A stretch of 32,000 bases of DNA from contig LVZN01000014.1 in the NCBI GenBank assembly GCA_001695645.1, positions 1 through 32,000 on the forward strand, given 5' to 3'. The stretch comes from Erysipelotrichaceae bacterium MTC7. Its GTDB lineage: Bacteria; Bacillota_I; Bacilli_A; Erysipelotrichales; Erysipelotrichaceae. The notes beneath the pieces were generated by a model. It did no database searches. It was not told where the DNA came from and was given only the letters and a program-made list of their open reading frames with translations. Positions 4,041 to 16,030 of the stretch are shown here, in pieces (position 1 is the first letter of the stretch; every line of letters starts with the position of its first letter). A program made the position numbers and the translations under genes.

Positions 4041-7000
4041 TTATCGTTCTTGTCCTTTTTCACTTTTTTCTTGATTTTTATCTTTTTCTTCTTCAGATTT
4101 GAATTTTGATATTTGTCCCAATATTGATGGTTTCTCTTCCCTTGAGTGAAGATTATCCTCTACATCATAAGTTGATTCAAAGTAATCACTATCTTTAAAA
4201 TCATTGTCATACCTATCTGGTATTCCGTCATTATCAAGATCTTTTGCTAGTGGATCATAGAAGTTTCCATCATCATCTATTTCTAGTCCTAGAGCTTGTT
4301 TCAAATCTTCTTCATCTACTGATACCAGATCGTCAAAACTTGACATCTTTATGGCTTCAGTCATATCTTTAATAGCTTGTGAATTAGATATATCTTCTTC
4401 TACAAAAGATTCTGTTCTAATAGCTACATTATCTACATACTGAGTCCATGTTTTTTCTTCCAAATTTACCTCATATTGAATAGAGTGTTTACCATCTGGT
4501 GTTTCTGTATAGGCAAGTCCTATATGGCTTAAATCTGGGTATAATTTGTCAAAGTCTTCATAGCTATTAGATTCTGAAAACTCATAGTTAGAATAATCAA
4601 CTATCGCCCTCTTTAAATCTTCCAATAATGGTGATTGGTTTTCTAATTCTTCTACTTCTCCCATATCTAAAAGTTTATTAATCTCAGCTAATCTTAGTGT
4701 CTTATCCCTTAACTCATCTGCTTTTTCAAATCGTTTGGTCAATTCTACTTTGGCATTTTCTAAAGATTCTTTATAATTTTCAAGGTTTTGATTTAATCTT
4801 TCAAGTCTTGAAGGCATTTTTTCAATGGCATTATCAAGCCTTGTTATATTGCCATCAGTAGAGTTTGAAAACTCTCCAAAGTATTCTGCTTTTCCTAGGA
4901 GTTTAAAGGTGTGAGTGTTAGTCATAAAGTTATATGAAACTTGCAAGTCTAAATTTCTATATTTACCAATGACCTTGCTATCATTTATCTTTACTTTTTT
5001 TATTTCTTCTAATAATTTCTCTCCAGCTTCTTTCTTATCTAGAATTTTATTTTCTCTAAGACTGATTGAAGTGAATTTTATGTCTCCTTCTCCCAATTTC
5101 TCAATACTTGCAATATCTTCTTTAACTGCTTGTATTTCCATTTCAGTTTTTAAAATACTTTGAGGATAAATTTTATTTACCTTATCTTCAAGCTTATATT
5201 TATTAGACTTGTAGTTTGCTTCAAGCATTTTTAGTTTTGTAACTTCGTTATCTAAGTCCATCTTTTCTTTAATCAGAGGATTGCCTGTAGCTAAAGCTTT
5301 AATTTCTGAATAAGATAGACTTGCTTCATCAACATCTTCAGCAACACGCACAGGCGTCTTGCTTGTCATAATTTGAGATATGAATTTTTGCTTATTCTCT
5401 ATTGTCTGCCATAAATAGGCATCAAAGGTATTTTCTGTTACATATCTAAAGATATTTACCTTATCATTTTCATTACCTTGACGAACAATTCTACCACTTC
5501 TTTGCTCTAGGTCAGACGGTCTCCATGGGACGTCTAAATCGTGTAAAGCAATTAGTTTATTTTGTACATTTGTACCTGCTCCCATTTTTTGAGTAGAGCC
5601 TAATAATACTCTTACTTCTCCTCTTCTTACCTTAGAGAACAATTCATCTTTTTGTTTGTCTGTATCTGCTTCGTGAATAAAGGCTATTTCCTCTTTTGGT
5701 ATTCCCATATTCACTAGCTTATTTCTAATATCATCATAGATATTAAATTCTCCATCTCCTTTTGGTGTAGACATATCTGAAAAGACTAATTGAGTTGATG
5801 AATTTTCTTTTGTCTTATCCCAGATACTAAAGACGTTTTTAACGCATACATTTACCTTTGAATTAGGATCATCTGGAAGTAGTGGGTTTATTAATCTTTG
5901 GTCTAGGGCAAGTTTTTTACCATCATTTGTAATCTTTAGCATATTATCTTCTGTAGGCTCGACTTGGTTATTTCTAACCGCATCAGCTCTTTCTGAAATA
6001 GCTTCTAATATTTCTTTTTGTTCCTCAGTAGGTTTTGTTTTAATAACTTCAAAATTTGCTTCAGGAACTGGCAAATTTAACATATCTGAAGTCTTTATAT
6101 CTGCTACTTCTTTAAACATGCTCATCAGCTCTGGCAAGTTATAAAACTTTGAAAATCTTGTCTTTTGCCTATAACCAGTGCCTTCTGGAGATAATTCAAA
6201 GGTGTTTTCTGTTTCTCCAAAAGTAGAAGCCCAAGCGTCAAAATGTTCTAATCCTCTTGCCTTTAAATCGTCATACTGAAGGTATCTTTGCATGGTATAA
6301 AGCTCTGTCATTGAATTTGATATTGGTGTACCAGTAGCAAAAACAACTCCCTTGCCATCTGTCATTTCATCCATATACCTACATTTCATATACATATCCG
6401 AAGACTTAAAGGCTTCACTCTGACCGATACCCGCAACATTTCTCATCTTGGTATGCAAAAATAAGTTTTTGTAATTATGAGCTTCGTCTATAAATAACTT
6501 ATCTACTCCTAGTTCTTCAAAGGTTATTACGTCATCCTTTTTAAAGTCATCGTTTAACTTTTCCAGTCTTACCAAAAGCTTCTTCTTTGTCTTTTCTAGT
6601 TGTTTAACCGTGAAATTTTCCCCTCTATTTCTTTTATTCTCATCAATAAAGGAAACTATATCATCTATTTGGTCTTGTATATGTCTAACCTGGTATTCCT
6701 TAGACATTGGTATTTTTTCAAATTGAGAGTGTCCTATGATAACTGCGTCATATTCTCCCGTTGCAATCCTACCAATAAATCTTTTTCTGTTTTTTGGTTG
6801 AAAGTCTTTTTTATCGGCCACCATAATGTTTGCTGACGGATATAACTGCATAAACTCTCTACCAATTTGAGTGGTTAGATGGTTAGGAACTACAAATAAT
6901 GATTTACTTGCAAGTCCCAACTTTTTAGATTCCATAGCAGAAGCCACCATTTCAAAAGTTTTTCCTGCTCCTACTACATGGGCAAGCAGTGTATTTCCAC

Positions 7001-10000
7001 CATAAAGAGTCCTAGCTATTGCGTTTTTCTGATGTTCTCGAAGTCTGATTTCAGTATTCATTCCATCAAAAGTTAAGTTAGAACCATCAAATTCTCTATT
7101 TCTAATTGAATTGAATTTTTCATTATAAATTTTTTCTAGCCTATATCTTCTATCAGGATCTTCAAATATCCAATTCTTAAATTCTTCTTTAATCAGTTCT
7201 TGCTTTTGACTTGCTAGCATAGTTTCTTTTTTATTTAATACAGAAGTCTTAGACCCATCATCATTTATTACTTGGTCAAATACTTTTGTATCTTTTAAAT
7301 TAAGAGCGTTCTCAATTAGCTTATAGGCATTCACTCTACTTGTACCATAAGTCATGTTAGCAAGGTCATTAGTTGAGTCAACACTCTTACCTTCAATATT
7401 CCATTCACTTGTATGTGGTGAGAACCTAACATTTATATTCCACCTATCATAGCCTGGTGTTTTTAAAAGATTAAAAGTAAAGTCTTCTATATCTTTTTGA
7501 GGTATCCAGGTTGCTCCTAACCTTACATTTATATCAGAAGCAGTGAGTTCTTCAGGGATAACTTCTTGTAATTTCTCTCTTTGGTATTTGAGTTTTCCTA
7601 ACTCGTTTAATAATGTATCTTTCTTTTCAGAAGGTGCTAAATCAATTACATTTTCAATTTCTCCTATATATGAATTGAGGTAGCCAATCTTTTCTCTAAT
7701 ATTTCCACTTAAATACTCGTCAGCCGATACATATGAAAAATGAAACGGATCGTCATTGTCAAAGTTTTCAAATGGCATTCTGTTATTTATTAGGTCTGTG
7801 TCCTTAATATCTAAAAATATCTCGCCCTCAAGCTCACCAATTAAGGTGTCCCTATCTTTATTTGTGATAGATTCCATATATTCAAAATCTACATATCCTT
7901 TTTGTGAAACTGATAAGAGTAAGGCTTCAAGGGAAGTATCTACATGATCTACTACCTTTGCCTTTGTAATTGTTCTTTTTGAAAATATATCACTCTTAGC
8001 TTTAAAATTATCCTCATCATCAAGTATTTCTATTGATGATACCAAAGAAAAGTTTGAGTCTTCTTTTAAGGCTCTAGTGTTTGATAAGGAGTTAATAAAA
8101 CCATGTTTCTTTGAAAAGTTATCATAGACTTCATTTAACTTTGCTTGTGACTCTTTTATTTCTTCATCAGAGAAATCGTCCTTTTGCTTTTCTATTACAT
8201 CTTTTAAAGCACTCATTACATCAAGATAATCTTTTATCTTTTCTTTATTTTTATCTGATATATTCTGCTTGATTAAGACTGAGTTTTCTCTTAGATATAC
8301 ATCTTCGTCAATAATGGTATAGGAAAAGTTTTTAACATCATCTGTTGCTGGAAGACTTAATTCTTCATCTTCCAATAGCTCGACTTCTTCATATTTTGAA
8401 TTTGAAGATATTTCCTTGCTTGCAAGATCCATTAAATCTTTTAATTTTTCATCTTCTTTTTCATCACAAGTAATAGTATTGCCAAATCTTCCAGATACTT
8501 CTTTCATATCCCCTAATACCATTTGAGGATTATCTACAAAGTATTTATTATAGGTCAAACCCTTTTTATCAGTTGCTAGGTGTATCCAATCGTCATCTCT
8601 TTCTATAACTGAATCTCTCTTTTTTAGAAAAATAATATCTGAAGTAACTTCTGTACCAGCAAGTCCTTTAAATGTTGTATTAGGAAGCCTCATAGCTCCT
8701 AAAAACTCACATCTTGCATTAATATATTTTCTAACAGATTCATCTTTTTTATCCATAGTTCCAGATGAAGTTATGAAGGCAATAATTCCTCCATTCCTAA
8801 CCTTATCTATTGACTTTGCAAAAAAATAATCGTGAATCAGAAAGTTATTTCTGTTATATTCACGATCGTTAACTTTAAAATCTCCAAAGGGAACATTTCC
8901 TATTACCAAGTCAAAGAAATTATTTGAGAAGTTTGTTTCTTCAAAGCCTTTAATTTGAATATTAGCTTCAGGATAAAGTTCTCTTGCTATTCTTCCGCTT
9001 AGACTATCTTTTTCTACTCCATAGACTTTAGAGCCTTGTATTTCACTTGGCATATTACCAATGAAATTACCGACTCCTGCAGATGGTTCAAGGATGTTCC
9101 CAGTCTTAAAACCCATATCTGTTAGGGTCTTATATATTCCATCCATTACCTCTCTAGGTGTATAAAATGATGTTAAAGTAGACTCTTTAGCATTCAAATA
9201 CTCTTCATTTGTTAGGTTTTCTTTTAAAATATTTCTTGCTTCAAGCCATTGTCCTCCCTTTTCTTCATCGAAGACATCGGCAAGACCTCCCCAACCTAGA
9301 TAATCAGCAAGATAGGCTTGTTCATACTCTCTTGGACTCCTATTTTCATTTTCAAGTCTTTTTAGCATTTTAATAGCTTTTATATTTTTATCTAGTCTTT
9401 CTGATGGTGTAAGGTATTCTGAGTAGATATGATTTTTCAAGTCATAATTTCTAGCAAAACTTAGCCTTTCCTTATTAGGTTCATAGCCTAGATTTTTTAA
9501 ATCTTCTTTTCCCCTCAATAAGTTTTCGGCTGAATCTCTTGGAACATCGTACCTATCCATCATTTGGTCAATTTCAGGATTGAACTTATCAATAAAGCTT
9601 TCTTGTTCTACTTGTCTTTCAATTTGATTTTCATGGTCAGATAATTTGTATATCTCATAGTTTCCACTATCTAAAAGGTCATCAATCTTTCTACTTTCTT
9701 CAAATGTTGCACCCTTATATAAAGGATATTCTTTCTCATTAACTTCTACCTTAGTTCCTGTTTCAATTAAGTTAATTCCATTAAATGTATTTTCATCTTC
9801 TAAAATAAATTCATTTCCAACCTTTACTGCTAGTTTTTCTGATGTTTGACTTAGATTTTCAAAGATTTCTTCAAGGTATGAATCGTTTCTATATGGAATT
9901 ACTTCCGAACCCCTAATCATACCTCCCATATATTCCATATTGTCTCTGATAGTGACAGTTTTAAGTCCTCCACTTAGTTCATCAAAATTTGTAATGGTAA

Positions 10001-11684
10001 AGTCCTTATCTTTATATCTAACCTGATCACCTATCTTAAATTTAGGTTCTATCTTTTCCTTAACTTCTTCTTGTAATGATTTTTCCTCACTTAGTGCAAC
10101 TTGCTCTTCTAAATATGAAAATTCACGCTCATTTACTTCTTCACCATCACCAAGGTCAATCCTATAATGCTCGACAACTTCATCGTCTACATAGTGGTCA
10201 AAATAGAATTTGAAATACCCGATATAGTCATCAGTCATTTCTCCAAATTCATTTTCTCCAAGAGTTTGATTATGGTCTTTAACATCAATATCCTTTTGTC
10301 TTAGGATATTGATTAAGTCTTTAGTTACTATCTGCCCACTATAATCGGGAACTAATTCGTGATTTTCATTAAATTCTACAATCCAGTAATCTTTTCTATT
10401 TTCAGTGCTTTTGCCATCAAAAAAAGAAGCTTCATCAGCTTCCTTTTCTTGACTTATTTCATTTTTTAAGCTTCCACGTATTCCTTGATTGCCATCTTCT
10501 TCACTGTTGCCATCAAGTTGTTCATCTGTCCTTGGTATTCCTCTGGATCCTCTCTCATCATCTTCTCTGTCAATCCTTGTGCTTTCATCATCTTGACTTT
10601 CTCTCTCTTGATAAAGTCCACTGCCTGATTCTGAATTTCCTTCAGGTGGTTCAAAAGTGTTTTCTCCTCGTACATTTTCTGAAGTTTCTTCCAGTTCTCC
10701 ATGTCCTCGCTCCCTACTAGGTAAGACAGTCTTAGAACTGCGTATGTCGGATTCGGATATCTCTCCATAAATTCCAGATCCTTCTCCATCATGTCCAAGA
10801 TTTTCTCTTCGATCTTCATCGCTATTTCCTCTGTCGCTTCCATCTGTGAAAACTCGTCTATCTCTACTTCTTGACCTATCATCTCGTCTATATAAATCAT
10901 CTTGACCTCCTCTATCTTCATTTATATTTTCTATATCTCTATTATAATCGCCACCGGCCCTTTCTGTCAGCAGCCTAGCACGATCTATTTCCTTAGATTT
11001 TTCTATTGTGCTATCTATAATATCTTCGCTAACCCTTGATATTACAAGACCTATCTGCTCTAAAGAAATTGTATTAATCCTAGAAAAATTATTTTTTAAA
11101 TTTTCCATATCCATAGGATAGACTGTATTAAACCTATTAGCTACCGCATAGGATATTGAGTCTCTCATAAACTTTTCAAAGCTAAGTCTATCCTCTATAT
11201 CTATCCTCAAATCAGCAAGAGCCAAGTTAATGTATTCATCTCCATAAATTCGACTCAAAGAAAATATATTTTCGTTTAGTGAATCACTCGCTTCAAATGA
11301 AAAATCTCTTATTATTTCTTTTAAAGCCTCCTTATGGTTTTCGTGGTCAAACTGCCATAAACTAACCTCATTAATATTCCTATCCATTGATGTGGTCTGA
11401 CTAACATCAAAAATATATGAAATTTTTTGATTTATATCACTTCCAACTAAAATTGGAATACCCCTTTGACCTCTCATAACAACTCGACCAAAATATTTCT
11501 TCCACATATCAAAAGTTGCACAAGCTCTAGCTTTAGGTTCTTTGTTGTATATACTTAGCTGGCTAGAAAAATCATATTTCTGATTATTGCCTATAACCTT
11601 TAAGAGTTTTAAATATTCTTTTTCATCTTGTAAAACTTCATACTTTATTGCTTCTTGTATATTCTTAAAATCATTTACTTGCAT
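4041..11684 (-). CDS. Polyvalent 2547-aa protein: ArdC-N-like domain, low-complexity linker, N6-adenine MTase, SNF2/DEAD-like helicase, C-terminal tail (phage P1 DarB-like architecture)
   Basis: N-terminus [24 protein letters not shown] is ArdC-N-like. MTase motif [12 protein letters not shown] (~nt 9064-9095) and motif [10 protein letters not shown] (~nt 8878-8903). Helicase motif [13 protein letters not shown] (~6961-6990), motif [12 protein letters not shown] (~6481-6495), motif [13 protein letters not shown] (~5481-5510). The start overlaps the upstream MTase stop by 14 nt. Confidence 0.9.
10466..10900 (-). CDS. Candidate nested alternate-frame gene, TnpV-like small protein (144 aa from ATG 10900; 151 aa from ATG 10921)
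   Basis: Open frame offset from the host ORF and bounded by TAA on both sides. GGAGG lies 5 nt upstream of the ATG at 10900. G-ending codon usage differs from the flanks. The C-terminal pattern [38 protein letters not shown] is recalled as TnpV-like. Not verified by search. Confidence 0.4.
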
Positions 11685-12636
11685 TTCCTACCTCCATTCT
11701 ATGAAATTCTTTTATAATAGCCATTAAAATATCAACCACAATAGAATTGCCGGCCTGCTTATATAGTTTGCTCGATGTACAATTCTTTCTTCTTGGATGT
11801 ACTTTCTCTAATTTGTCTATATCACAGTCATCAAAACCCATGAGTCTTAGGCATTCTCTTTCTGTTAAATACCTATATTTACCATTTCCAATATCTATTA
11901 TTCCAGAATTTGGTACTCTCATTTGTTTTGTAGAAATAGTATATGAAAAATCTTTAATCACTTTTAGTCGCCCTCTAAAACTGTTATCTATGCTTTTATT
12001 TAAAAATTTCAGCATATAAGGTTGGGTCATTGTATAAAGTTCACTTACATCCTTTTCTAAAAATTCACTTAGTGGTCTTGTTTCTTTCCTCTCCAATTTA
12101 TTAAAAGAAAAGTTATTTGCCCCAAGACATGAAACAACAAATATCCTTTCCCTTTTTTGAGGTATCCCAAAGTCCATTGCATTTAAGATTTCATACTTGC
12201 TTTCATATCCTAGGCTCTCTAACTCTTTTAGATAAATAAAAAAGGAGTCCCTCATATTTCTATCAAGGACTCCCTTTACATTTTCCCAAATTATCCATTT
12301 AGGTTTATCTTTCATTTCTTTTATTATTCTAATTGTTTCAAATAGTAAGCTTGATCTAGTTCCTGAGTTTTTTACTCCTCCTTGCTTTTTTCCTATTCTT
12401 GAAAAGTCTTGGCAAGGACTTCCATGCATAATTAAGTCTATCTTTTCATTAGGAGCTTTATATCCTACTACTGATTTTGCTCTATATTCTCCTCCATAAA
12501 GTGCATTGTATGATTTAACACAAGCCTTATCTATTTCTACATAATCAACTACTTCATAAGGTATCTTTAAATTAATAAAAGCCTTTCTAATAGCACCTAT
12601 GCCCCCGAAAAGCTCTAATATTTTCACCTTATTCAT
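11671..12636 (-). CDS. DNA (cytosine-5)-methyltransferase, orphan (no cognate endonuclease seen)
   Basis: Motif I ELFGGIGA, motif [10 protein letters not shown], motif VI WENVKG, motif VIII QKRERIF, motif X GNSIVV. The start overlaps the TopB stop by 8 nt. Confidence 0.92.
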
Positions 12637-14350
12637 TTAGATTGTTCTTGTACCTATCTACAAGCTCCCTTATACTATCTTCAATTTCTCTTAAAAAGTC
12701 TTCTTTATCTACTTCACCAGAGCTAATTTTTGCAAGTTTCATTTCCCATTCAGAAGTTGTTTCTGCCGACTTAAAATTATCTTCTACAATCGATACAAGT
12801 CTATTGCCTTTTTCTGTTACAAGTAATTTTTTCTTATCTCTTCTTATAAGATCCTTATGGATAAGATTTTCAATAATTCCTGCTCTTGTAGCTGGTGTTC
12901 CTAAGCCTTTTCTCTCCACTTCTACATCTTTATCCAAGGATTCTACTCCTGCACTCTCCATAGCCTTTAAAAGTGTATCTTCATTATAATGACTTGGAGC
13001 TTTGGTAAATTTCTCCGATATGTTTTTAGAAGTTAGCTTAATTTTATCTCCAGTCTTTACATCTGGTAATTCATTTTCTTGTTTTTCTTTTCCATAAGTC
13101 TTTAGATACTTTATATAACCTTCATTGATTACAGTCTTGCCACTTGCATTAAAGTTAAATTTATCATATTCATATCTGATTTTTCTACTAGATTCCTTTA
13201 AGTTATCCGAACATGAAGCAAGTAACTTATCTTTAATTAGATTATAAATTTTACTTTCTTTGTCAGATATATCTTTAGCTTTTCCAATACCTGATATAGT
13301 AGGAATAATTGCATAGTGGTCTGTAACCTTAGATGAGTTAAAAATAGACTTAAAGTTTGACTCATTAACTTTAAAGTCTTCTTCAAGTCCTTCTAATAAT
13401 TCTTTCATAGTATTTACCATATCATCGGTTAAATACCTGCTATCCGTTCTTGGGTATGTGATTAGCTTCTTTTCATACAAACCTTGTGCCAGATTTAAAG
13501 TGTCATTTGCTGAATATCCAAAATATTTATTTGCTTCTCTTTGCAAGGTAGTAAGATCATAAGGCTTATCTGGTTTTGTGCTTATTTCTTTATCTTCTAC
13601 CTCTGTAATAACTATTTCATCTTCTAGCAGATTTAATAGTTGTTCAGCAACTTCAATTTTATCAATCCTATCTGATACAAGTTTTAATCCTTCATAAGAT
13701 AGGTCAACTGTATAATATTTTTGCTTCTTAAATAGGTTTATTTCACTATCCCTTTTAGCTATTAAATATAGAGTTGGAGTTTGTACTCTACCAACTGAAT
13801 ATGTTTCCTTGTAAATGCAAGAATAAAGCCTACTTAAATTCATTCCTACCAGCCAATCAGCAATTGCTCTTGCACTTGCTGATCTATATAGGTCTTCAAA
13901 GTTTTCTCCGTCTTTAAGATTTCTAAATCCATCTTCAATAGCTTTGTTTTCCATTGAAGATATCCAAAGTCTTTGAATCTTCTTCTTACATTTAGTTTGA
14001 TTATATACAAGCCTAAAAATAAGTTCTCCCTCTCTTCCAGCATCACAAGCATTTATTACTGTGTCGTTGTTCTTATCGTTTAAAAGTTTCTTTAAAACTC
14101 CATATTGTTTTTTAGTGCTTTTAGATACTTCATAAATATATTCTTCTGGGATTATAGGAAGAGTGTCTATTGTCCATTTCTTCCATTTTTCGTCTATCTT
14201 ATCTGGACTTGCCATTTGAATTAAATGACCGACACACCAAGAAACAATGTATCCATTCCCCTCATAATATCCGTTTTTTCTTGTTCTTGCTCCAATTACT
14301 TTTGCAATTGTAACTGCTACACTTGGCTTTTCTGCTATTACTAATTTCAT
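12629..14350 (-). CDS. topB: Type IA DNA topoisomerase III, short form without C-terminal zinc fingers
   Basis: Toprim MKLVIAEKPS and CDAGREGE; active-site tyrosine motif ITYPRTDSRYL. RBS ggaggt lies upstream. Confidence 0.9.
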   Translation of the reverse strand: MKLVIAEKPSVAVTIAKVIGARTRKNGYYEGNGYIVSWCVGHLIQMASPDKIDEKWKKWTIDTLPIIPEEYIYEVSKSTKKQYGVLKKLLNDKNNDTVINACDAGREGELIFRLVYNQTKCKKKIQRLWISSMENKAIEDGFRNLKDGENFEDLYRSASARAIADWLVGMNLSRLYSCIYKETYSVGRVQTPTLYLIAKRDSEINLFKKQKYYTVDLSYEGLKLVSDRIDKIEVAEQLLNLLEDEIVITEVEDKEISTKPDKPYDLTTLQREANKYFGYSANDTLNLAQGLYEKKLITYPRTDSRYLTDDMVNTMKELLEGLEEDFKVNESNFKSIFNSSKVTDHYAIIPTISGIGKAKDISDKESKIYNLIKDKLLASCSDNLKESSRKIRYEYDKFNFNASGKTVINEGYIKYLKTYGKEKQENELPDVKTGDKIKLTSKNISEKFTKAPSHYNEDTLLKAMESAGVESLDKDVEVERKGLGTPATRAGIIENLIHKDLIRRDKKKLLVTEKGNRLVSIVEDNFKSAETTSEWEMKLAKISSGEVDKEDFLREIEDSIRELVDRYKNNLNE

Positions 14351-14442: not shown

Positions 14443-15432
14443 TTACTTATTAATTTCTTTTTCTAGTTCTTGAAGAACTTTTATAATCTCTTCAAATTTT
14501 GGATAGTCTCCATAAATCATTTCTGCCATAGCCTTATAATCTTTTTCTATTTCAGAAAATCTGTACTCTCTTGGGACTAATCTTAATCTACCATTTAGTG
14601 CTTCTTCATACTTTGCCCACTTCCTAGGATAAAATTTCATTTTAAATTCAGTCACTTTCTTTAGTAATTCTTTATCCTCTAAGGCTTTGTTTTTAAAATC
14701 TGATTTTGCTATTTTATATAAGTCATAAAAGTGTCTTGCATACCTGTGCGGCATAGGAGAAGATTCTGGTCTATTTGCTTCGTGATGAAGTATAGTTGCC
14801 TTTTCCCAAAATGTTCTCTCTGCTGATACCGTTCTTATATTAGTTTTTTCTTGGAATACATTTGAATATGCTTCGCCAATTATCGGCAAAACTTCAACAT
14901 CAATTGCAGGTGTCCATGCTGCAAGGCTTCCTATTTCAAGCTTTATATTTTGTGTTAAATAATTAGATTCAAAGATTTTAGGATATTTACATAGAATTGT
15001 TTGTGAATCTATACTATCTATAGAAAATTCAAAATCAAAATCCTTTAAATCTTGTTCTAAAACTTTTAAAAATTCATCTCTTAAAAATACTTCTGTCTTT
15101 TCATTAACTGCTTTGTTGAATTTATCTTGCTTGGTATTTGACCTTTCTAACCAAGGTTCTTTTTCTTCATAGCCTAATACTCTCCAATCTAAGATCAGAT
15201 CTATATCTTCAGAAAATCTTTCTATAAGTCCAAAACACTTTGAAAGTGATGTGCCACCTTTAAAGGTAAAACAATCTTTCCATTTATTTTCATTGAATAG
15301 ATAGTCTAAGATAAAAGTAACCCAATAGTCTTTTTCAATGACTGCTTCAGATATATTTTTCTTTCTGGCTGTATTTACTATTAAAACTCTTAAGTCTTCT
15401 TTGTCTTCTATATAAAACTTATTCATTTTCAC
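14443..15432 (-). CDS. abiEii: AbiEii/DUF1814-type nucleotidyltransferase toxin (type IV TA / abortive infection)
   Basis: NTase motif FKGGTSLSKCFGLIERFSEDIDL. 329 aa. The start overlaps the upstream antitoxin stop by 14 nt. Confidence 0.8.
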   Translation of the reverse strand: MKMNKFYIEDKEDLRVLIVNTARKKNISEAVIEKDYWVTFILDYLFNENKWKDCFTFKGGTSLSKCFGLIERFSEDIDLILDWRVLGYEEKEPWLERSNTKQDKFNKAVNEKTEVFLRDEFLKVLEQDLKDFDFEFSIDSIDSQTILCKYPKIFESNYLTQNIKLEIGSLAAWTPAIDVEVLPIIGEAYSNVFQEKTNIRTVSAERTFWEKATILHHEANRPESSPMPHRYARHFYDLYKIAKSDFKNKALEDKELLKKVTEFKMKFYPRKWAKYEEALNGRLRLVPREYRFSEIEKDYKAMAEMIYGDYPKFEEIIKVLQELEKEINK

Positions 15433-16030
15433 CCTCAGAAATTTTCCTTATTACTTCATATATCCATGCTGGCACTGATTTTGACTCGTTCATTAAGTCT
15501 ATTCTTTCTTTTTCACTTAAATTTTCTCTTATCTTTTGTATAACTTCATTAGTTATATTTTCTTTTCCCAAAGACTTAATTGCTTGAATAACTGTCGCTG
15601 TCTTCAAAGACATATTGGCAATTTCTCCTGGATTTACTTTTTTAAATTCTAAAACTGTATCCCCAATTTTATATTCTTTATATCTTCCACTAGATATATA
15701 TTTATAGTGAGTTGGAACTTGTGTTGAAAGTCCTAATAAGTTTAAGGCTGTGCTACTATATGGTGCAATATTCCAATTATATTTTCTTGCTATGGCAAGT
15801 GCTAACTCGTGAATCGATACTGCTTCGTACTCTCCAATTAATTCACTATATCTTGGATTGTAATAAAATCCATAAATGACACGCTTAATTTTATCTTCAT
15901 CTGCTAATCTTTTTAATATTTGTCTAACCGTAGCATTAGATGCAACATCTAAAAAGTCATTTGCAAAAAATACTTTATGCGAGTCAAAGCTATTTATTTT
16001 ATCTGATATTATTTCCATATATGAACTCAT
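15419..16030 (-). CDS. abiEi: AbiEi-like antitoxin / transcriptional regulator
   Basis: 203 aa encoded directly upstream of, and overlapping, the NTase gene. N-terminal wHTH-like segment NATVRQILKRLADEDKIKRVIYGFYYNP. RBS aaaggag. Confidence 0.65.
   Translation of the reverse strand: MSSYMEIISDKINSFDSHKVFFANDFLDVASNATVRQILKRLADEDKIKRVIYGFYYNPRYSELIGEYEAVSIHELALAIARKYNWNIAPYSSTALNLLGLSTQVPTHYKYISSGRYKEYKIGDTVLEFKKVNPGEIANMSLKTATVIQAIKSLGKENITNEVIQKIRENLSEKERIDLMNESKSVPAWIYEVIRKISEGENE

What the first reader, a model, noticed from the sequence alone, without database searches (positions are those of the whole stretch)
10466..10921. TnpV-like ORF nested in an alternate frame of the same strand, inside the linker of the 2547-aa polyvalent gene
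Seen in sequence:
- ORF 10466..10921 (-) lies wholly inside 4041..11684 (-) in a different frame (11684-10921=763, not a multiple of 3).
- It fills the whole stop-to-stop interval: a TAA sits directly 5' of its first ATG and a TAA lies at 10466.
- An in-frame ATG at 10900 is preceded by GGAGG with a 5-nt spacer (agaGGAGGtcaagATG).
- The interval is visibly more G+C- and purine-rich than its flanks. The nested frame uses G-ending codons (gag, aag, ctg, atg), unlike the A/T-ending usage elsewhere in the element.
- In the host frame the same DNA gives D/E/R/G/S low-complexity filler ([21 protein letters not shown]...[23 protein letters not shown]), exactly between the ArdC-like N-domain and the next folded domain.
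- The nested frame instead gives an amphipathic helical protein.

Recollection: its C-terminal part (LRLSYL...[12 protein letters not shown]...[38 protein letters not shown]) fits the pattern I recall for TnpV-family small proteins of clostridial transposons (..LRYL..L..L.EID.QA...M..AQG.TE.LKA.D...W.G.MNN...A.E.V..E.V).

Inference: this is either a genuine overprinted gene, or a captured higher-GC TnpV-like gene now read out of frame as a disordered linker. Either would be unusual.
Basis: partly seen in the sequence, partly recalled or inferred. Interest (0 to 1): 0.72.

Follow-up and report, generated by a model that had tools for sequence, protein, structure and literature searches.

The report
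Real TnpV gene nested inside giant gene
A small, well-folded protein gene (TnpV family) is written in a second reading frame inside the flexible spacer of a 2547-residue conjugative-element gene; evolution protects the small gene's protein sequence and only keeps the big gene's frame free of stops, and the same layout recurs across very distant mobile elements.

Summary
ORF 10466..10921(-) lies in frame +1 of the giant gene 4041..11684(-). Its product is a divergent TnpV (PF14198, 26.9 bits against a cutoff of 27) that links through intermediates to core TnpV (147 bits). AlphaFold gives a confident all-helical fold (pLDDT 92).

In 73 of 78 loci chosen only by the host's N-terminal domain, both frames are intact. 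In 82 of 84 loci chosen only by TnpV motifs, TnpV is nested the same way, directly after the N-domain. This holds from 30% to 62% GC and down to about 24% N-domain identity.

In three independent lineages, substitutions in the overlap that are silent for TnpV but change the host protein occur at the neutral rate. The reverse class is suppressed (odds ratios 6–7; p = 1e-15 and 2e-5 in the two lineages tested). The flanks show the opposite pattern.

Keeping the host frame open requires selection. Simulation gives 11–15 expected stops and 0 of 20,000 open frames. This explains the T-poor, G-ending codons and the GC bump.

A GGAGG or AAGGAG motif followed by ATG (window 10900) is present in nearly all lineages examined, so the likely product is 144 aa. 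NCBI already labels the ORF "TnpV protein". I found no paper that describes the overlap. TnpV's function remains unknown.

The parts
10466..10900 (-). Nested tnpV-like gene from its conserved start codon: 144 codons plus the TAA stop at 10468-10466, in frame +1 of the host gene
   Evidence: ORF listing and sequence. The start MIYIDEM / MYFDEM / MLFDQM is conserved in all lineages. Pfam TnpV E=4.9e-6. Purifying selection acts on this frame. AF2 pLDDT is 91.9.
10901..10921 (-). Optional 7-codon 5' extension (MKIEEVK) from the first ATG at 10921. It is probably not the true start.
   Evidence: The first ATG is absent in about 17 of 49 close relatives. NCBI calls both 151-aa and 144-aa forms.
10906..10910 (-). 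Shine-Dalgarno GGAGG, 5 nt upstream of the ATG at 10900
   Evidence: GGAGG or AAGGAG lies about 4-9 nt upstream of the homologous ATG in nearly all lineages, although it encodes different host residues (Gly-Gly versus Glu-Glu-Val).
10922..10924 (-). TAA stop in the nested frame, directly upstream of the first ATG
   Evidence: stop-to-stop interval starts at host offset 763.
4041..11684 (-). Host giant gene of 2547 aa, called 'snf2' or MTase-SNF2 in the streptococcal ICE literature
   Evidence: Pfam finds Eco57I methylase, ResIII, SNF2-rel_dom and Helicase_C. Literature context: PMC12942858.
10935..11684 (-). Host N-terminal domain (aa 1-250), putatively ArdC-N-like
   Evidence: Conserved at 23-97% identity in all homologues. 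No Pfam or PDB sequence match. Distant Listeria homologues are named ArdC-like by NCBI.
10466..10921 (-). Host-frame linker (about aa 255-406). It reads the same DNA as D/E/R/G/S low complexity and is kept open, with no detectable constraint on its amino acids.
   Evidence: Host-nonsynonymous/nested-synonymous changes occur at the flank synonymous rate. No Pfam match. Openness requires selection.
8721..9095 (-). Host methyltransferase core (aa ~864-988)
   Evidence: Pfam Eco57I and Methyltransf_25
5475..7049 (-). Host SNF2/ResIII helicase region (aa ~1546-2070)
   Evidence: Pfam ResIII, SNF2-rel_dom and Helicase_C
10941..10970 (-). Candidate internal sigma-70-type promoter: CTGACA (10970-10965), 18-nt spacer, TATAAT (10946-10941), about 40 nt upstream of the nested start
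   Evidence: Best promoter-like match in 10300-12800 at 11 of 12. The motif is conserved in the low-GC lineages but absent in the GC-rich ones. Function is untested.
10869..10908 (-). Pair of 9-nt direct repeats AGGTCAAGA (10908-10900 and 10877-10869), 31 nt apart
   Evidence: Deletion between them in Anaerococcus octavius (L010) fuses the N-domain in frame to TnpV and truncates the giant gene.

Best explanation
The 435-nt interval 10466-10900(-) encodes two things at once.

In frame +1 it is a bona fide gene for a 144-aa all-helical protein of the TnpV family.
- I infer that this gene is translated independently. It has its own Shine-Dalgarno (GGAGG) and ATG inside the mRNA of the giant gene. 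In low-GC lineages a dedicated internal promoter is also possible.

In frame 0 the ribosome translating the giant gene reads the same nucleotides as a disordered acidic spacer.
- The spacer tethers the N-terminal (ArdC-N-like) domain to the methylase and SNF2-helicase body.
- Selection acts on the TnpV amino-acid sequence.
- The spacer shows no detectable constraint other than staying free of stops. TnpV's synonymous codon choice achieves this: T is avoided at third positions before codons starting AA, AG or GA. That choice also raises GC and produces the G-ending codons.

What is shown:
- homology of the nested product to TnpV;
- conservation of both frames;
- the direction of selection;
- the codon-choice mechanism.

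What is inferred:
- independent initiation at the ATG at 10900;
- that TnpV is the older gene and the spacer frame was overprinted on it when flanking genes fused. TnpV is the folded, conserved reading with stand-alone relatives. The spacer frame is disordered and unconstrained.

TnpV's biochemical role is unknown. My low-confidence guess is that it is a small accessory factor of the DNA-processing or establishment machinery of conjugative and mobilisable elements.
For: Homology and fold:
- Pfam TnpV E=4.9e-6.
- 281 close relatives, named TnpV by NCBI among the 120 listed.
- 50 representative clusters, all 250 aa or shorter, none in frame within a giant protein.
- Nested ORFs in distant lineages are core TnpV at 147.5 bits.
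- AF2 pLDDT 91.9, pTM 0.82.

Conservation, sampled two independent ways:
- 80 loci were picked by the host N-domain alone. TnpV is always in frame +1 at aa ~257-404, and both frames are intact in 73 of 78.
- 84 loci were picked by TnpV motifs alone. 82 are nested in homologues of the same giant gene, directly after the N-domain. This includes a subfamily with an extra 340-aa N-terminal extension.
- The layout holds in S. suis, C. botulinum and C. perfringens hosts at 24-28% N-domain identity.

Selection:
- Clade A overlap: variant events by host codon position are 74/30/29, against 49/46/151 in the N-domain. Host-nonsynonymous/nested-synonymous transitions run at 0.41, the same as the flank synonymous rate of 0.42. 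Host-synonymous/nested-nonsynonymous transitions run at 0.107.
- Clade B: OR 7.1, p=1e-15. The flanks are reversed, with OR 0.12 and 0.19.
- GC-rich group C: OR 6.0, p=2e-5. The flank OR is 0.11.
- Nested-frame amino-acid identity exceeds host-frame identity in all 15 cross-lineage pairs.

Dual-coding cost:
- 11-15 host-frame stops are expected, and 0 of 20,000 back-translations were open.
- T at nested third positions is 12% against 26% expected.

Translation signals:
- GGAGG or AAGGAG lies about 4-9 nt before the homologous ATG in nearly all lineages examined. It does so despite encoding different host-frame residues.
Against: - There is no direct evidence of expression: no Ribo-seq, proteomics or transcript mapping.
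- The window copy scores 0.1 bit below Pfam's gathering threshold.
- Some relatives (L001, P0126) fail the Pfam model outright. Family membership of this sub-branch therefore rests on transitive similarity.
- A purine-rich Shine-Dalgarno-like motif is easy to find in a purine-rich region.
- The candidate promoter is absent in GC-rich lineages.
- No host homologue lacking the nested frame was found, so the direction of origin (capture versus escape) is not resolved.
- G is preferred over A at nested third positions beyond what stop avoidance requires. This hints at some weak constraint on spacer composition that my rate test did not detect.
Confidence: 0.85

Rival explanations
1. The TnpV frame is reached by programmed +1 ribosomal frameshifting from the host frame near the GGAGG motif. 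This would yield an N-domain-TnpV fusion of about 395 aa alongside the full giant protein, instead of or in addition to independent initiation.
For: Natural variants encode exactly such in-frame fusions ending at the TnpV stop, so the fusion is at least tolerated: P0172/L010, P0216 (12 contigs), P0191 and P0153. An internal Shine-Dalgarno-like GGAGG just upstream is the kind of element that stimulates +1 shifting in prfB (own knowledge).
Against: The homologous ATG with correctly spaced SD is present in nearly all lineages. The nested frame carries a stop 0-7 codons upstream of the start region in the low-GC clades. No conserved slippery or hungry-codon site was noticed. The fusion variants arise by ordinary deletions or indels, for example a 31-nt deletion between direct repeats, and occur in only about 1 of 78 sampled loci.
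Confidence: 0.08
2. The nested ORF is a chance open frame. A purine-rich, T-poor linker has few stop codons in any sense frame, and the TnpV resemblance is spurious.
For: The region is purine-rich and T-poor. The Pfam hit for the window copy is marginal.
Against: The third frame is full of stops. The nested frame is homologous to core TnpV at 147 bits in distant loci. It is under purifying selection in three lineages. It folds with pLDDT 92. The T-poverty is a consequence of dual coding and is specific to nested third positions.
Confidence: 0.01
3. This is an assembly artefact. Two compensating indels put a TnpV domain out of frame, or a separate gene was merged into the giant ORF.
For: Some database entries do show frame switches within this interval: P0130, P0135, P0191.
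Against: The same +1 relationship, with identical boundaries, is seen in more than 150 independent assemblies from many species, sequencing technologies and GC contents. Among 50 representative clusters no giant protein carries TnpV in frame.
Confidence: 0.01
4. The host-frame spacer is itself a functional, sequence-specific segment, so both frames carry amino-acid-level function as in Rz/Rz1.
For: Some host-frame motifs recur across clades (…I(Y/H)G(E/R)ISES(D/N)(I/L)RS…). G is preferred to A at nested third positions, which biases the spacer towards Asp, Glu and Gly. The transversion rate of host-nonsynonymous/nested-synonymous changes is somewhat below the flank synonymous rate in clade B, 0.23 against 0.37-0.45.
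Against: Host-nonsynonymous/nested-synonymous transitions accumulate at the full synonymous rate in all three lineages. Host-frame identity is always lower than nested-frame identity, and recurring host motifs are the expected by-product of a conserved overlapping frame. There is no Pfam match. Composition differs completely between low-GC (D/E/R/G/S) and GC-rich (A/G/E/D/P/R) lineages.
Confidence: 0.12

Closest known systems
TnpV of Tn4451/Tn4453-type mobilisable transposons and IMEs (Pfam PF14198)
   Same: The protein family is the same. The R..(Y/F)L, HL.EI and MNN/LMN motifs are shared and the size is similar. It is encoded on mobile elements of Bacillota. [quoted passage not shown]
   Different: Those copies are ordinary stand-alone genes, for example downstream of a large serine recombinase in C. 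coli pCOS502 or next to tet(O/W/32/O) in pSGG1. Here the gene has no DNA of its own. The window copy is divergent: it carries an extra N-terminal helical segment and scores 26.9 bits.
Rz/Rz1 spanin genes of phage lambda (Rz1 wholly embedded in the +1 frame of Rz) — own knowledge
   Same: A complete gene is nested in the +1 frame of a same-strand host gene. It has its own ribosome-binding site, and both products are made from one stretch of DNA.
   Different: In Rz/Rz1 both frames encode functional, interacting protein segments. Here one frame appears to be only a spacer. The overlap here is longer (about 435 nt) and sits in a 7.6-kb gene of conjugative elements, not in a phage lysis cassette.
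comS embedded out of frame in srfAB of Bacillus subtilis — own knowledge
   Same: A small regulatory gene lies hidden in another frame of a giant multidomain gene, is co-transcribed with it, and is translated from its own start.
   Different: comS is 46 codons, is confined to a narrow taxon, and overlaps a catalytic domain. The nested gene here is 144 codons, occupies an inter-domain linker, and is conserved across classes of Bacillota and from 30% to 62% GC.
Polyvalent proteins of conjugative elements (Iyer et al. 2017, PMC5512222)
   Same: The host gene has the described logic: an N-terminal ssDNA-binding-type domain followed by methylase and SWI2/SNF2 modules, inside a T4SS-type transfer region.
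   Different: That survey treats these genes as single-frame multidomain proteins. It does not mention TnpV, linkers or overlapping frames.

Membership tests
TnpV (Pfam PF14198) | Profile match at or above the curated gathering score (27 bits) | tested here: inconclusive
   The window product scores 26.9 bits, E=4.9e-6, over profile 23-110 of 111, which is 0.1 bit short. Several 93-97% identical database proteins carry a precomputed PF14198 hit. Intermediates score 63 bits (P0143), and distant nested copies score 147.5 bits over the full profile.
TnpV (Pfam PF14198) | Small protein of about 110-150 aa with the conserved core motifs (R..YL; HL.EI; …MNN…; …E.V/I at the C-terminus) | tested here: met
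   In alignments A4 and A5, R57 and H85 are invariant or nearly so, and L61 and L86 are nearly invariant, across window, intermediate and canonical sequences.
TnpV (Pfam PF14198) | Encoded on mobile elements of Bacillota | tested here: met
   Window neighbours are a VirB4/TraG-like ATPase, TrbL/VirB6, NlpC/P60, topoisomerase III, Dcm and AbiEii. Relatives lie on ICEs and plasmids.
TnpV (Pfam PF14198) | Defined biochemical function | not testable with these tools
   No function is established for the family. There is no PDB sequence relative and no structural relative in PDB or BFVD.
Same-strand nested (overprinted) gene pair | Two open frames over the same DNA, both conserved in homologues | tested here: met
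   73 of 78 N-domain-selected loci and 82 of 84 TnpV-selected loci.
Same-strand nested (overprinted) gene pair | Evolutionary signature of protein-level selection on the embedded frame | tested here: met
   The substitution-class and codon-position tests agree in three independent lineages, with the flanks as internal controls.
Same-strand nested (overprinted) gene pair | Own translation initiation signals | tested here: met
   A conserved SD plus ATG is present in nearly all lineages. This is sequence-level evidence only.
Same-strand nested (overprinted) gene pair | Both products demonstrated in cells | not testable with these tools
   Needs Ribo-seq, proteomics or tagged constructs.
Polyvalent ArdC-N / methylase / SNF2 protein (host gene) | ArdC-N ssDNA-binding domain at the N-terminus | tested here: inconclusive
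   There is no Pfam ArdC_N hit for the window or the GC-rich N-domain and no PDB sequence hit. Listeria homologues at 25% identity (E=7e-6) are named 'ArdC-like ssDNA-binding domain-containing protein' by NCBI. No fold comparison was run.
Polyvalent ArdC-N / methylase / SNF2 protein (host gene) | Methyltransferase and SWI2/SNF2 helicase modules in one polypeptide | tested here: met
   Eco57I 30.1 bits, SNF2-rel_dom 28.7, ResIII 27.8 and Helicase_C 33.4, all above their cutoffs.
Programmed ribosomal frameshift site | Conserved shift-prone heptamer or hungry codon with a stimulator at the frame junction | not tested
   No systematic motif search was run. The junction region was only inspected by eye in the alignments, where the conserved elements are the SD and the ATG.

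The most novel reading that the evidence does not exclude
The +1 frame of the linker in these giant ArdC-N/methylase/SNF2 genes is the ancestral and main home of the whole TnpV family. The family has at least 7,869 members. The stand-alone tnpV genes of Tn4451-type transposons and snf2-targeting IMEs would then be escapes from this context. The nesting would be functional, not just tolerated. For example, ribosomes traversing the host frame could gate the internal Shine-Dalgarno, setting TnpV dosage relative to the giant protein during establishment in a new host. That would make this one of the oldest and most widespread long same-strand overlapping gene pairs known in bacteria.
Probability: 0.25. 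Interest if true: 0.85.

Novelty: new member of a known kind. Interest (0 to 1): 0.7.

Why it matters
Long same-strand overlapping genes are well accepted in viruses. In bacteria they are rare and usually contested.

This case has unusually clean comparative evidence:
- two independent sampling routes;
- three lineages tested for selection;
- the flanks as internal controls;
- a quantified dual-coding cost.

It occurs in clinically important resistance-carrying ICEs of streptococci, enterococci, clostridia and anaerobic cocci.

Several consequences follow:
- A disordered inter-domain linker can be 'free real estate' that hides a complete folded-protein gene.
- Annotation of this gene is inconsistent. 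It is called in some RefSeq records and invisible under 'helicase-related protein' in others, and studies that knock out or interrupt 'snf2' also hit tnpV.
- The analysis explains a local GC and codon-usage anomaly without invoking horizontal transfer.
- The giant gene is a hotspot for integration of other elements (PMC9815147, PMC12942858), some of which carry their own tnpV. The hidden gene may therefore matter for how composite ICEs form and survive.

Tried and rejected
- Hypervariability or a DGR-like process. The many distinct 93-97% variants suggested it. I rejected it because the whole 2.4-kb region shows the same 93.6-99% pairwise identity.
- Foreign higher-GC origin of the interval. 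It is not needed: T-avoidance from dual coding accounts for the composition, and the GC-rich lineage shows no GC bump (0.62 against 0.62).
- NCBIfam and PHROGs scans of the nested product gave nothing useful.
- A PDB sequence-profile search with the TnpV alignment gave no hits. Foldseek against PDB and BFVD gave no meaningful hits (E>1, TM<0.3), so no functional inference from structure was possible.
- Pfam and PDB searches of the N-domain gave no ArdC_N match.
- The viral-contig scan found only 3 loci. The first attempt with a 16-sequence alignment failed for lack of conserved stretches.
- The last homology search returned mostly near-identical proteins in its top 120. It did not give the diverse contexts I wanted, and the metagenome scan supplied those instead.
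- I looked for a host homologue without a nested TnpV frame in order to polarise the origin. None was found, even at 24-28% N-domain identity. The Listeria plasmids have a degenerate but still open +1 frame.
- An internal promoter as a universal feature was rejected, because it is confined to the low-GC lineages.
- Literature searches found no prior description of the overlap.
Full report
**1. The observation**

The ORF listing and the sequence confirm every stated feature.
- The ORF 10466..10921(-) has 151 codons. It lies wholly inside the 2547-codon ORF 4041..11684(-) at an offset of 763 nt, which is frame +1.
- A TAA sits immediately upstream of the first ATG, and the ORF ends in TAA.
- A second ATG at 10900 is preceded by GGAGG with a 5-nt spacer.
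- GC rises to 0.39-0.43 over the interval, against about 0.30 around it.
- The host frame reads D/E/R/G/S low complexity there.

**2. Is the nested product really TnpV-like?**

- Pfam gives TnpV (PF14198) at E=4.9e-6 over profile positions 23-110 of 111. The score is 26.9 bits against a gathering score of 27.
- NCBIfam gave nothing and PHROGs gave only weak matches to families of unknown function.
- A database search found 281 proteins. The top 120 are all 151-153 aa and 93-97% identical. Most are named 'TnpV protein' by NCBI and come from S. agalactiae, S. pyogenes, Finegoldia, Peptoniphilus, Anaerococcus, C. difficile, Enterococcus and S. aureus. NCBI's automatic annotation already calls this ORF.
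- An exhaustive search of 1.84 billion representatives found 50 related clusters. All are 250 aa or shorter, and none is embedded in frame in a large protein.
- Intermediates bridge the window copy to the core family. P0143 is 35% identical to the window product and scores 63 bits on Pfam TnpV. The nested ORFs of GC-rich relatives score 147.5 bits over the full profile.
- With a 22-sequence alignment, AlphaFold2 gives an all-helical model with mean pLDDT 91.9 and pTM 0.82.
- The model has no relative in PDB or BFVD, so the fold gives no functional clue.

**3. Is the arrangement conserved?**

I sampled in two independent ways.

(a) By the host only.
- An alignment of the N-terminal domain (A1) was used to scan one genome per species. 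It returned 80 loci.
- About 56 loci are at 90-98% N-domain identity, one is at 80%, and about 24 are at 55-59%.
- In every locus with enough sequence, a TnpV-like HMM match lies in frame +1 at host residues ~257-404. The host frame runs on for more than 1250 codons.
- Both frames are intact through the overlap in 73 of 78 loci.

(b) By TnpV only.
- An alignment led by a distant member (A3) was used to scan metagenome and viral contigs. It returned 83 loci.
- Counting the stand-alone Vescimonas plasmid copy as well, 82 of 84 TnpV ORFs have the frame one step behind them free of stops. That frame stays open for up to 6.3 kb.
- Those hosts are homologues of the window's giant gene. The N-domain is 23-35% identical and the methylase region 40-66% identical.
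- TnpV always sits directly after the N-domain. In a subfamily whose host has an extra ~340-residue N-terminal extension, the nested gene is displaced by the same amount.
- Many of these nested ORFs are the canonical TnpV sequence.

More remote plasmid-borne hosts behave the same way.
- These are from S. suis, C. botulinum and C. perfringens, at 24-28% N-domain identity.
- Listeria plasmids keep a 121-codon open +1 frame with recognisable TnpV remnants, but it falls below HMM significance.

Stand-alone tnpV genes also exist. Examples lie in a Vescimonas conjugation module, downstream of a large serine recombinase in C. coli pCOS502, and next to tet(O/W/32/O) in pSGG1.

**4. Which frame is under selection?**

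I took every variant allele in an alignment as one event. I classified it by its effect in each frame and normalised by opportunity. Transitions and transversions were kept apart, and the flanks served as controls.

Events per host codon position (1 / 2 / 3) and the Fisher test of the two mixed classes:

| Lineage (call) | N-domain | Overlap | Overlap test | Flank test |
|---|---|---|---|---|
| Clade A, 46 unique sequences, 93.6-99% identical (30) | 49/46/151 | 74/30/29 | not run | not run |
| Clade B, 22 sequences, 80-99% identical (32) | 78/51/223 | 92/46/34 | OR 7.1, p=1e-15 | OR 0.12 and 0.19 |
| Group C, 33 sequences, 62% GC, canonical TnpV (49) | 14/9/72 | 23/7/7 | OR 6.0, p=2e-5 | OR 0.11 (N-domain) |

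- In clade A the downstream flank also peaks at host position 3 (63 of 109 and 156 of 283 events). In the overlap the peak moves to host position 1, which is TnpV position 3.
- In the clade A overlap, changes that alter the host protein but are silent in TnpV occur at 0.41 (transitions) and 0.21 (transversions). This equals the flank synonymous rate of 0.42 and 0.18-0.23.
- Changes silent in the host but altering TnpV occur at 0.107 and 0.033, which equals the flank non-synonymous rate.
- Across lineages, the TnpV frame is better conserved than the host frame in all 15 pairs. Examples are 0.82 against 0.62 and 0.44 against 0.33.

Selection therefore acts on the TnpV protein, and the host frame shows no detectable amino-acid constraint.

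**5. How is the host frame kept open?**

- I back-translated the TnpV protein with the element's own codon usage. This gives 11-15 stops in the host frame, and 0 of 20,000 simulations were open.
- Real sequences avoid T at TnpV third positions: 12% observed against 26% expected. T never precedes a codon starting AA, AG or GA.
- G rises to 43% at those positions, and GAG, AAG and CAG are preferred.
The GC-rich lineage shows no bump.
- G is preferred over A beyond what stop avoidance needs. I cannot explain this; it may reflect a weak preference for an acidic spacer.

**6. Expression signals**

- The homologous start (MIYIDEM / MYFDEM / MLFDQM / MTELTY…) is preceded by GGAGG or AAGGAG at about 4-9 nt in nearly all lineages examined. 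The motif encodes different host residues in different clades.
- The first ATG (10921) is missing in about a third of close relatives. The likely product is therefore 144 aa, starting at 10900.
- The best promoter-like match in the neighbourhood is CTGACA-18-TATAAT at 10970-10941 (11 of 12), about 40 nt upstream of the start.
- That promoter-like motif is conserved in the low-GC lineages but absent in GC-rich ones. It is a lead, not a finding.

**7. Rivals**

- A chance ORF and an assembly artefact are excluded by sections 3-5.
- A programmed +1 frameshift that would make an N-domain-TnpV fusion cannot be excluded formally. It is unnecessary, given the conserved SD and ATG.
- The in-frame fusions seen in databases arise by ordinary mutations. 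One example is a 31-nt deletion between two AGGTCAAGA repeats in A. octavius. Such fusions are rare among the sampled loci.
- A sequence-specific function for the spacer is not supported by the rates. It is not excluded at the level of composition.

**8. Origin (inferred)**

- TnpV is folded, conserved and has stand-alone relatives. The spacer frame is disordered and unconstrained.
- By the usual logic of overprinting, TnpV is the older reading. The spacer frame would have been created when an N-domain gene and a methylase-helicase gene fused by reading through tnpV in another frame.
- No homologue lacking the nested frame was found. The opposite polarity, in which stand-alone copies are escapes, therefore remains possible.

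**9. Context and prior knowledge**

- The window is part of a conjugative element. It carries a VirB4/TraG-like ATPase, TrbL/VirB6, NlpC/P60, topoisomerase III, Dcm and AbiEii.
- The host gene is the 'snf2' or methylase-SNF2 gene of the streptococcal ICE literature. It is a known integration hotspot for Tn1806-like ICEs and for IMEs that carry stand-alone tnpV (PMC12942858, PMC9815147).
- Those papers do not mention a nested or overlapping TnpV. Neither does the polyvalent-protein survey PMC5512222, nor the 25 top-ranked of the 38 papers containing 'TnpV', judged from their titles and abstracts.
- TnpV's function is untested. PMC3158075 records only an old suggestion of an Xis-like role.

**10. 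Verdict**

- The ORF itself is already in databases. What appears to be new is the dual-coding architecture, its selection signature, its codon-level mechanism and its deep conservation.
- This is a new and unusually well-supported member of the known class of same-strand nested genes, comparable to Rz/Rz1 and comS/srfA.

Noticed in passing
window 10869-10908; locus L010 (Anaerococcus octavius); proteins P0172, P0216, P0191, P0130, P0135, P0153: Some database entries are natural frame-switch variants. The N-domain is fused in frame to TnpV and ends at the TnpV stop, or the TnpV frame runs into the host frame. In L010 the cause is a 31-nt deletion between two AGGTCAAGA direct repeats. The Treponema phagedenis form (P0216) occurs on 12 contigs. 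These may be decaying genes, sequencing errors or tolerated alternative architectures.
   Followed up: partly
window 10941-10970 (- strand): A near-consensus promoter-like site, CTGACA-18-TATAAT, lies about 40 nt upstream of the nested start. Its TATAAT is the invariant host Tyr-Asn codon pair. It is conserved in low-GC lineages only.
   Followed up: partly
window 10466-10900, nested-frame third positions: G (43%) is strongly preferred over A (31%; 44% expected) at TnpV third positions. Stop avoidance only requires avoiding T. This could mean weak selection for an acidic, Gly-rich spacer.
   Followed up: no
literature (PMC9815147, PMC12942858) and loci L168, L169: Stand-alone tnpV genes travel with large serine recombinases on IMEs that integrate specifically into the 'snf2' giant gene. 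Tn1806-like ICEs target the same gene. So elements carrying tnpV insert into a gene that itself hides a tnpV. Whether the insertion sites relate to the nested gene was not examined.
   Followed up: no
loci L170, L171 (Listeria plasmids): The remote host homologue is annotated 'ArdC-like ssDNA-binding domain-containing protein' or 'SNF2-related protein'. It keeps a 121-codon open +1 frame at the equivalent position with TnpV-like remnants (MPIGKIGK…, …RMQAEEIILNQL), below HMM significance. In L170 the host gene is truncated at about 500 aa next to an IS6 element.
   Followed up: partly
window 11671-11684 and 12629-12636: The giant gene's start overlaps the end of the dcm gene (11671..12636) by 14 nt. 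dcm in turn overlaps the topoisomerase III gene (12629..14350) by 8 nt. This suggests one translationally coupled operon.
   Followed up: no
window 14443-16030: An AbiEii-type nucleotidyltransferase toxin gene (14443..15432, Pfam E=9e-42) overlaps a 203-aa ORF (15419..16030) that is probably its AbiEi antitoxin. This would be a type IV toxin-antitoxin or abortive-infection pair inside the transfer region.
   Followed up: no
plasmid records NC_013164.1, NZ_CP134263.1, NZ_KJ776578.1 and others: Annotation is inconsistent. The nested tnpV is called in many RefSeq and TPA streptococcal assemblies, but it is absent under 'helicase-related protein' or 'SNF2-related protein' in other records. Part of this may be the incomplete PLSDB gene table.
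   Followed up: partly
Homologous-protein result: A search with the host N-domain returned only proteins of 437 aa or shorter, with none of the ~2500-aa full-length homologues. Some are real truncations or frame-switch fusions. Others look like contig-end fragments, so the list under-represents intact giant genes.
   Followed up: no
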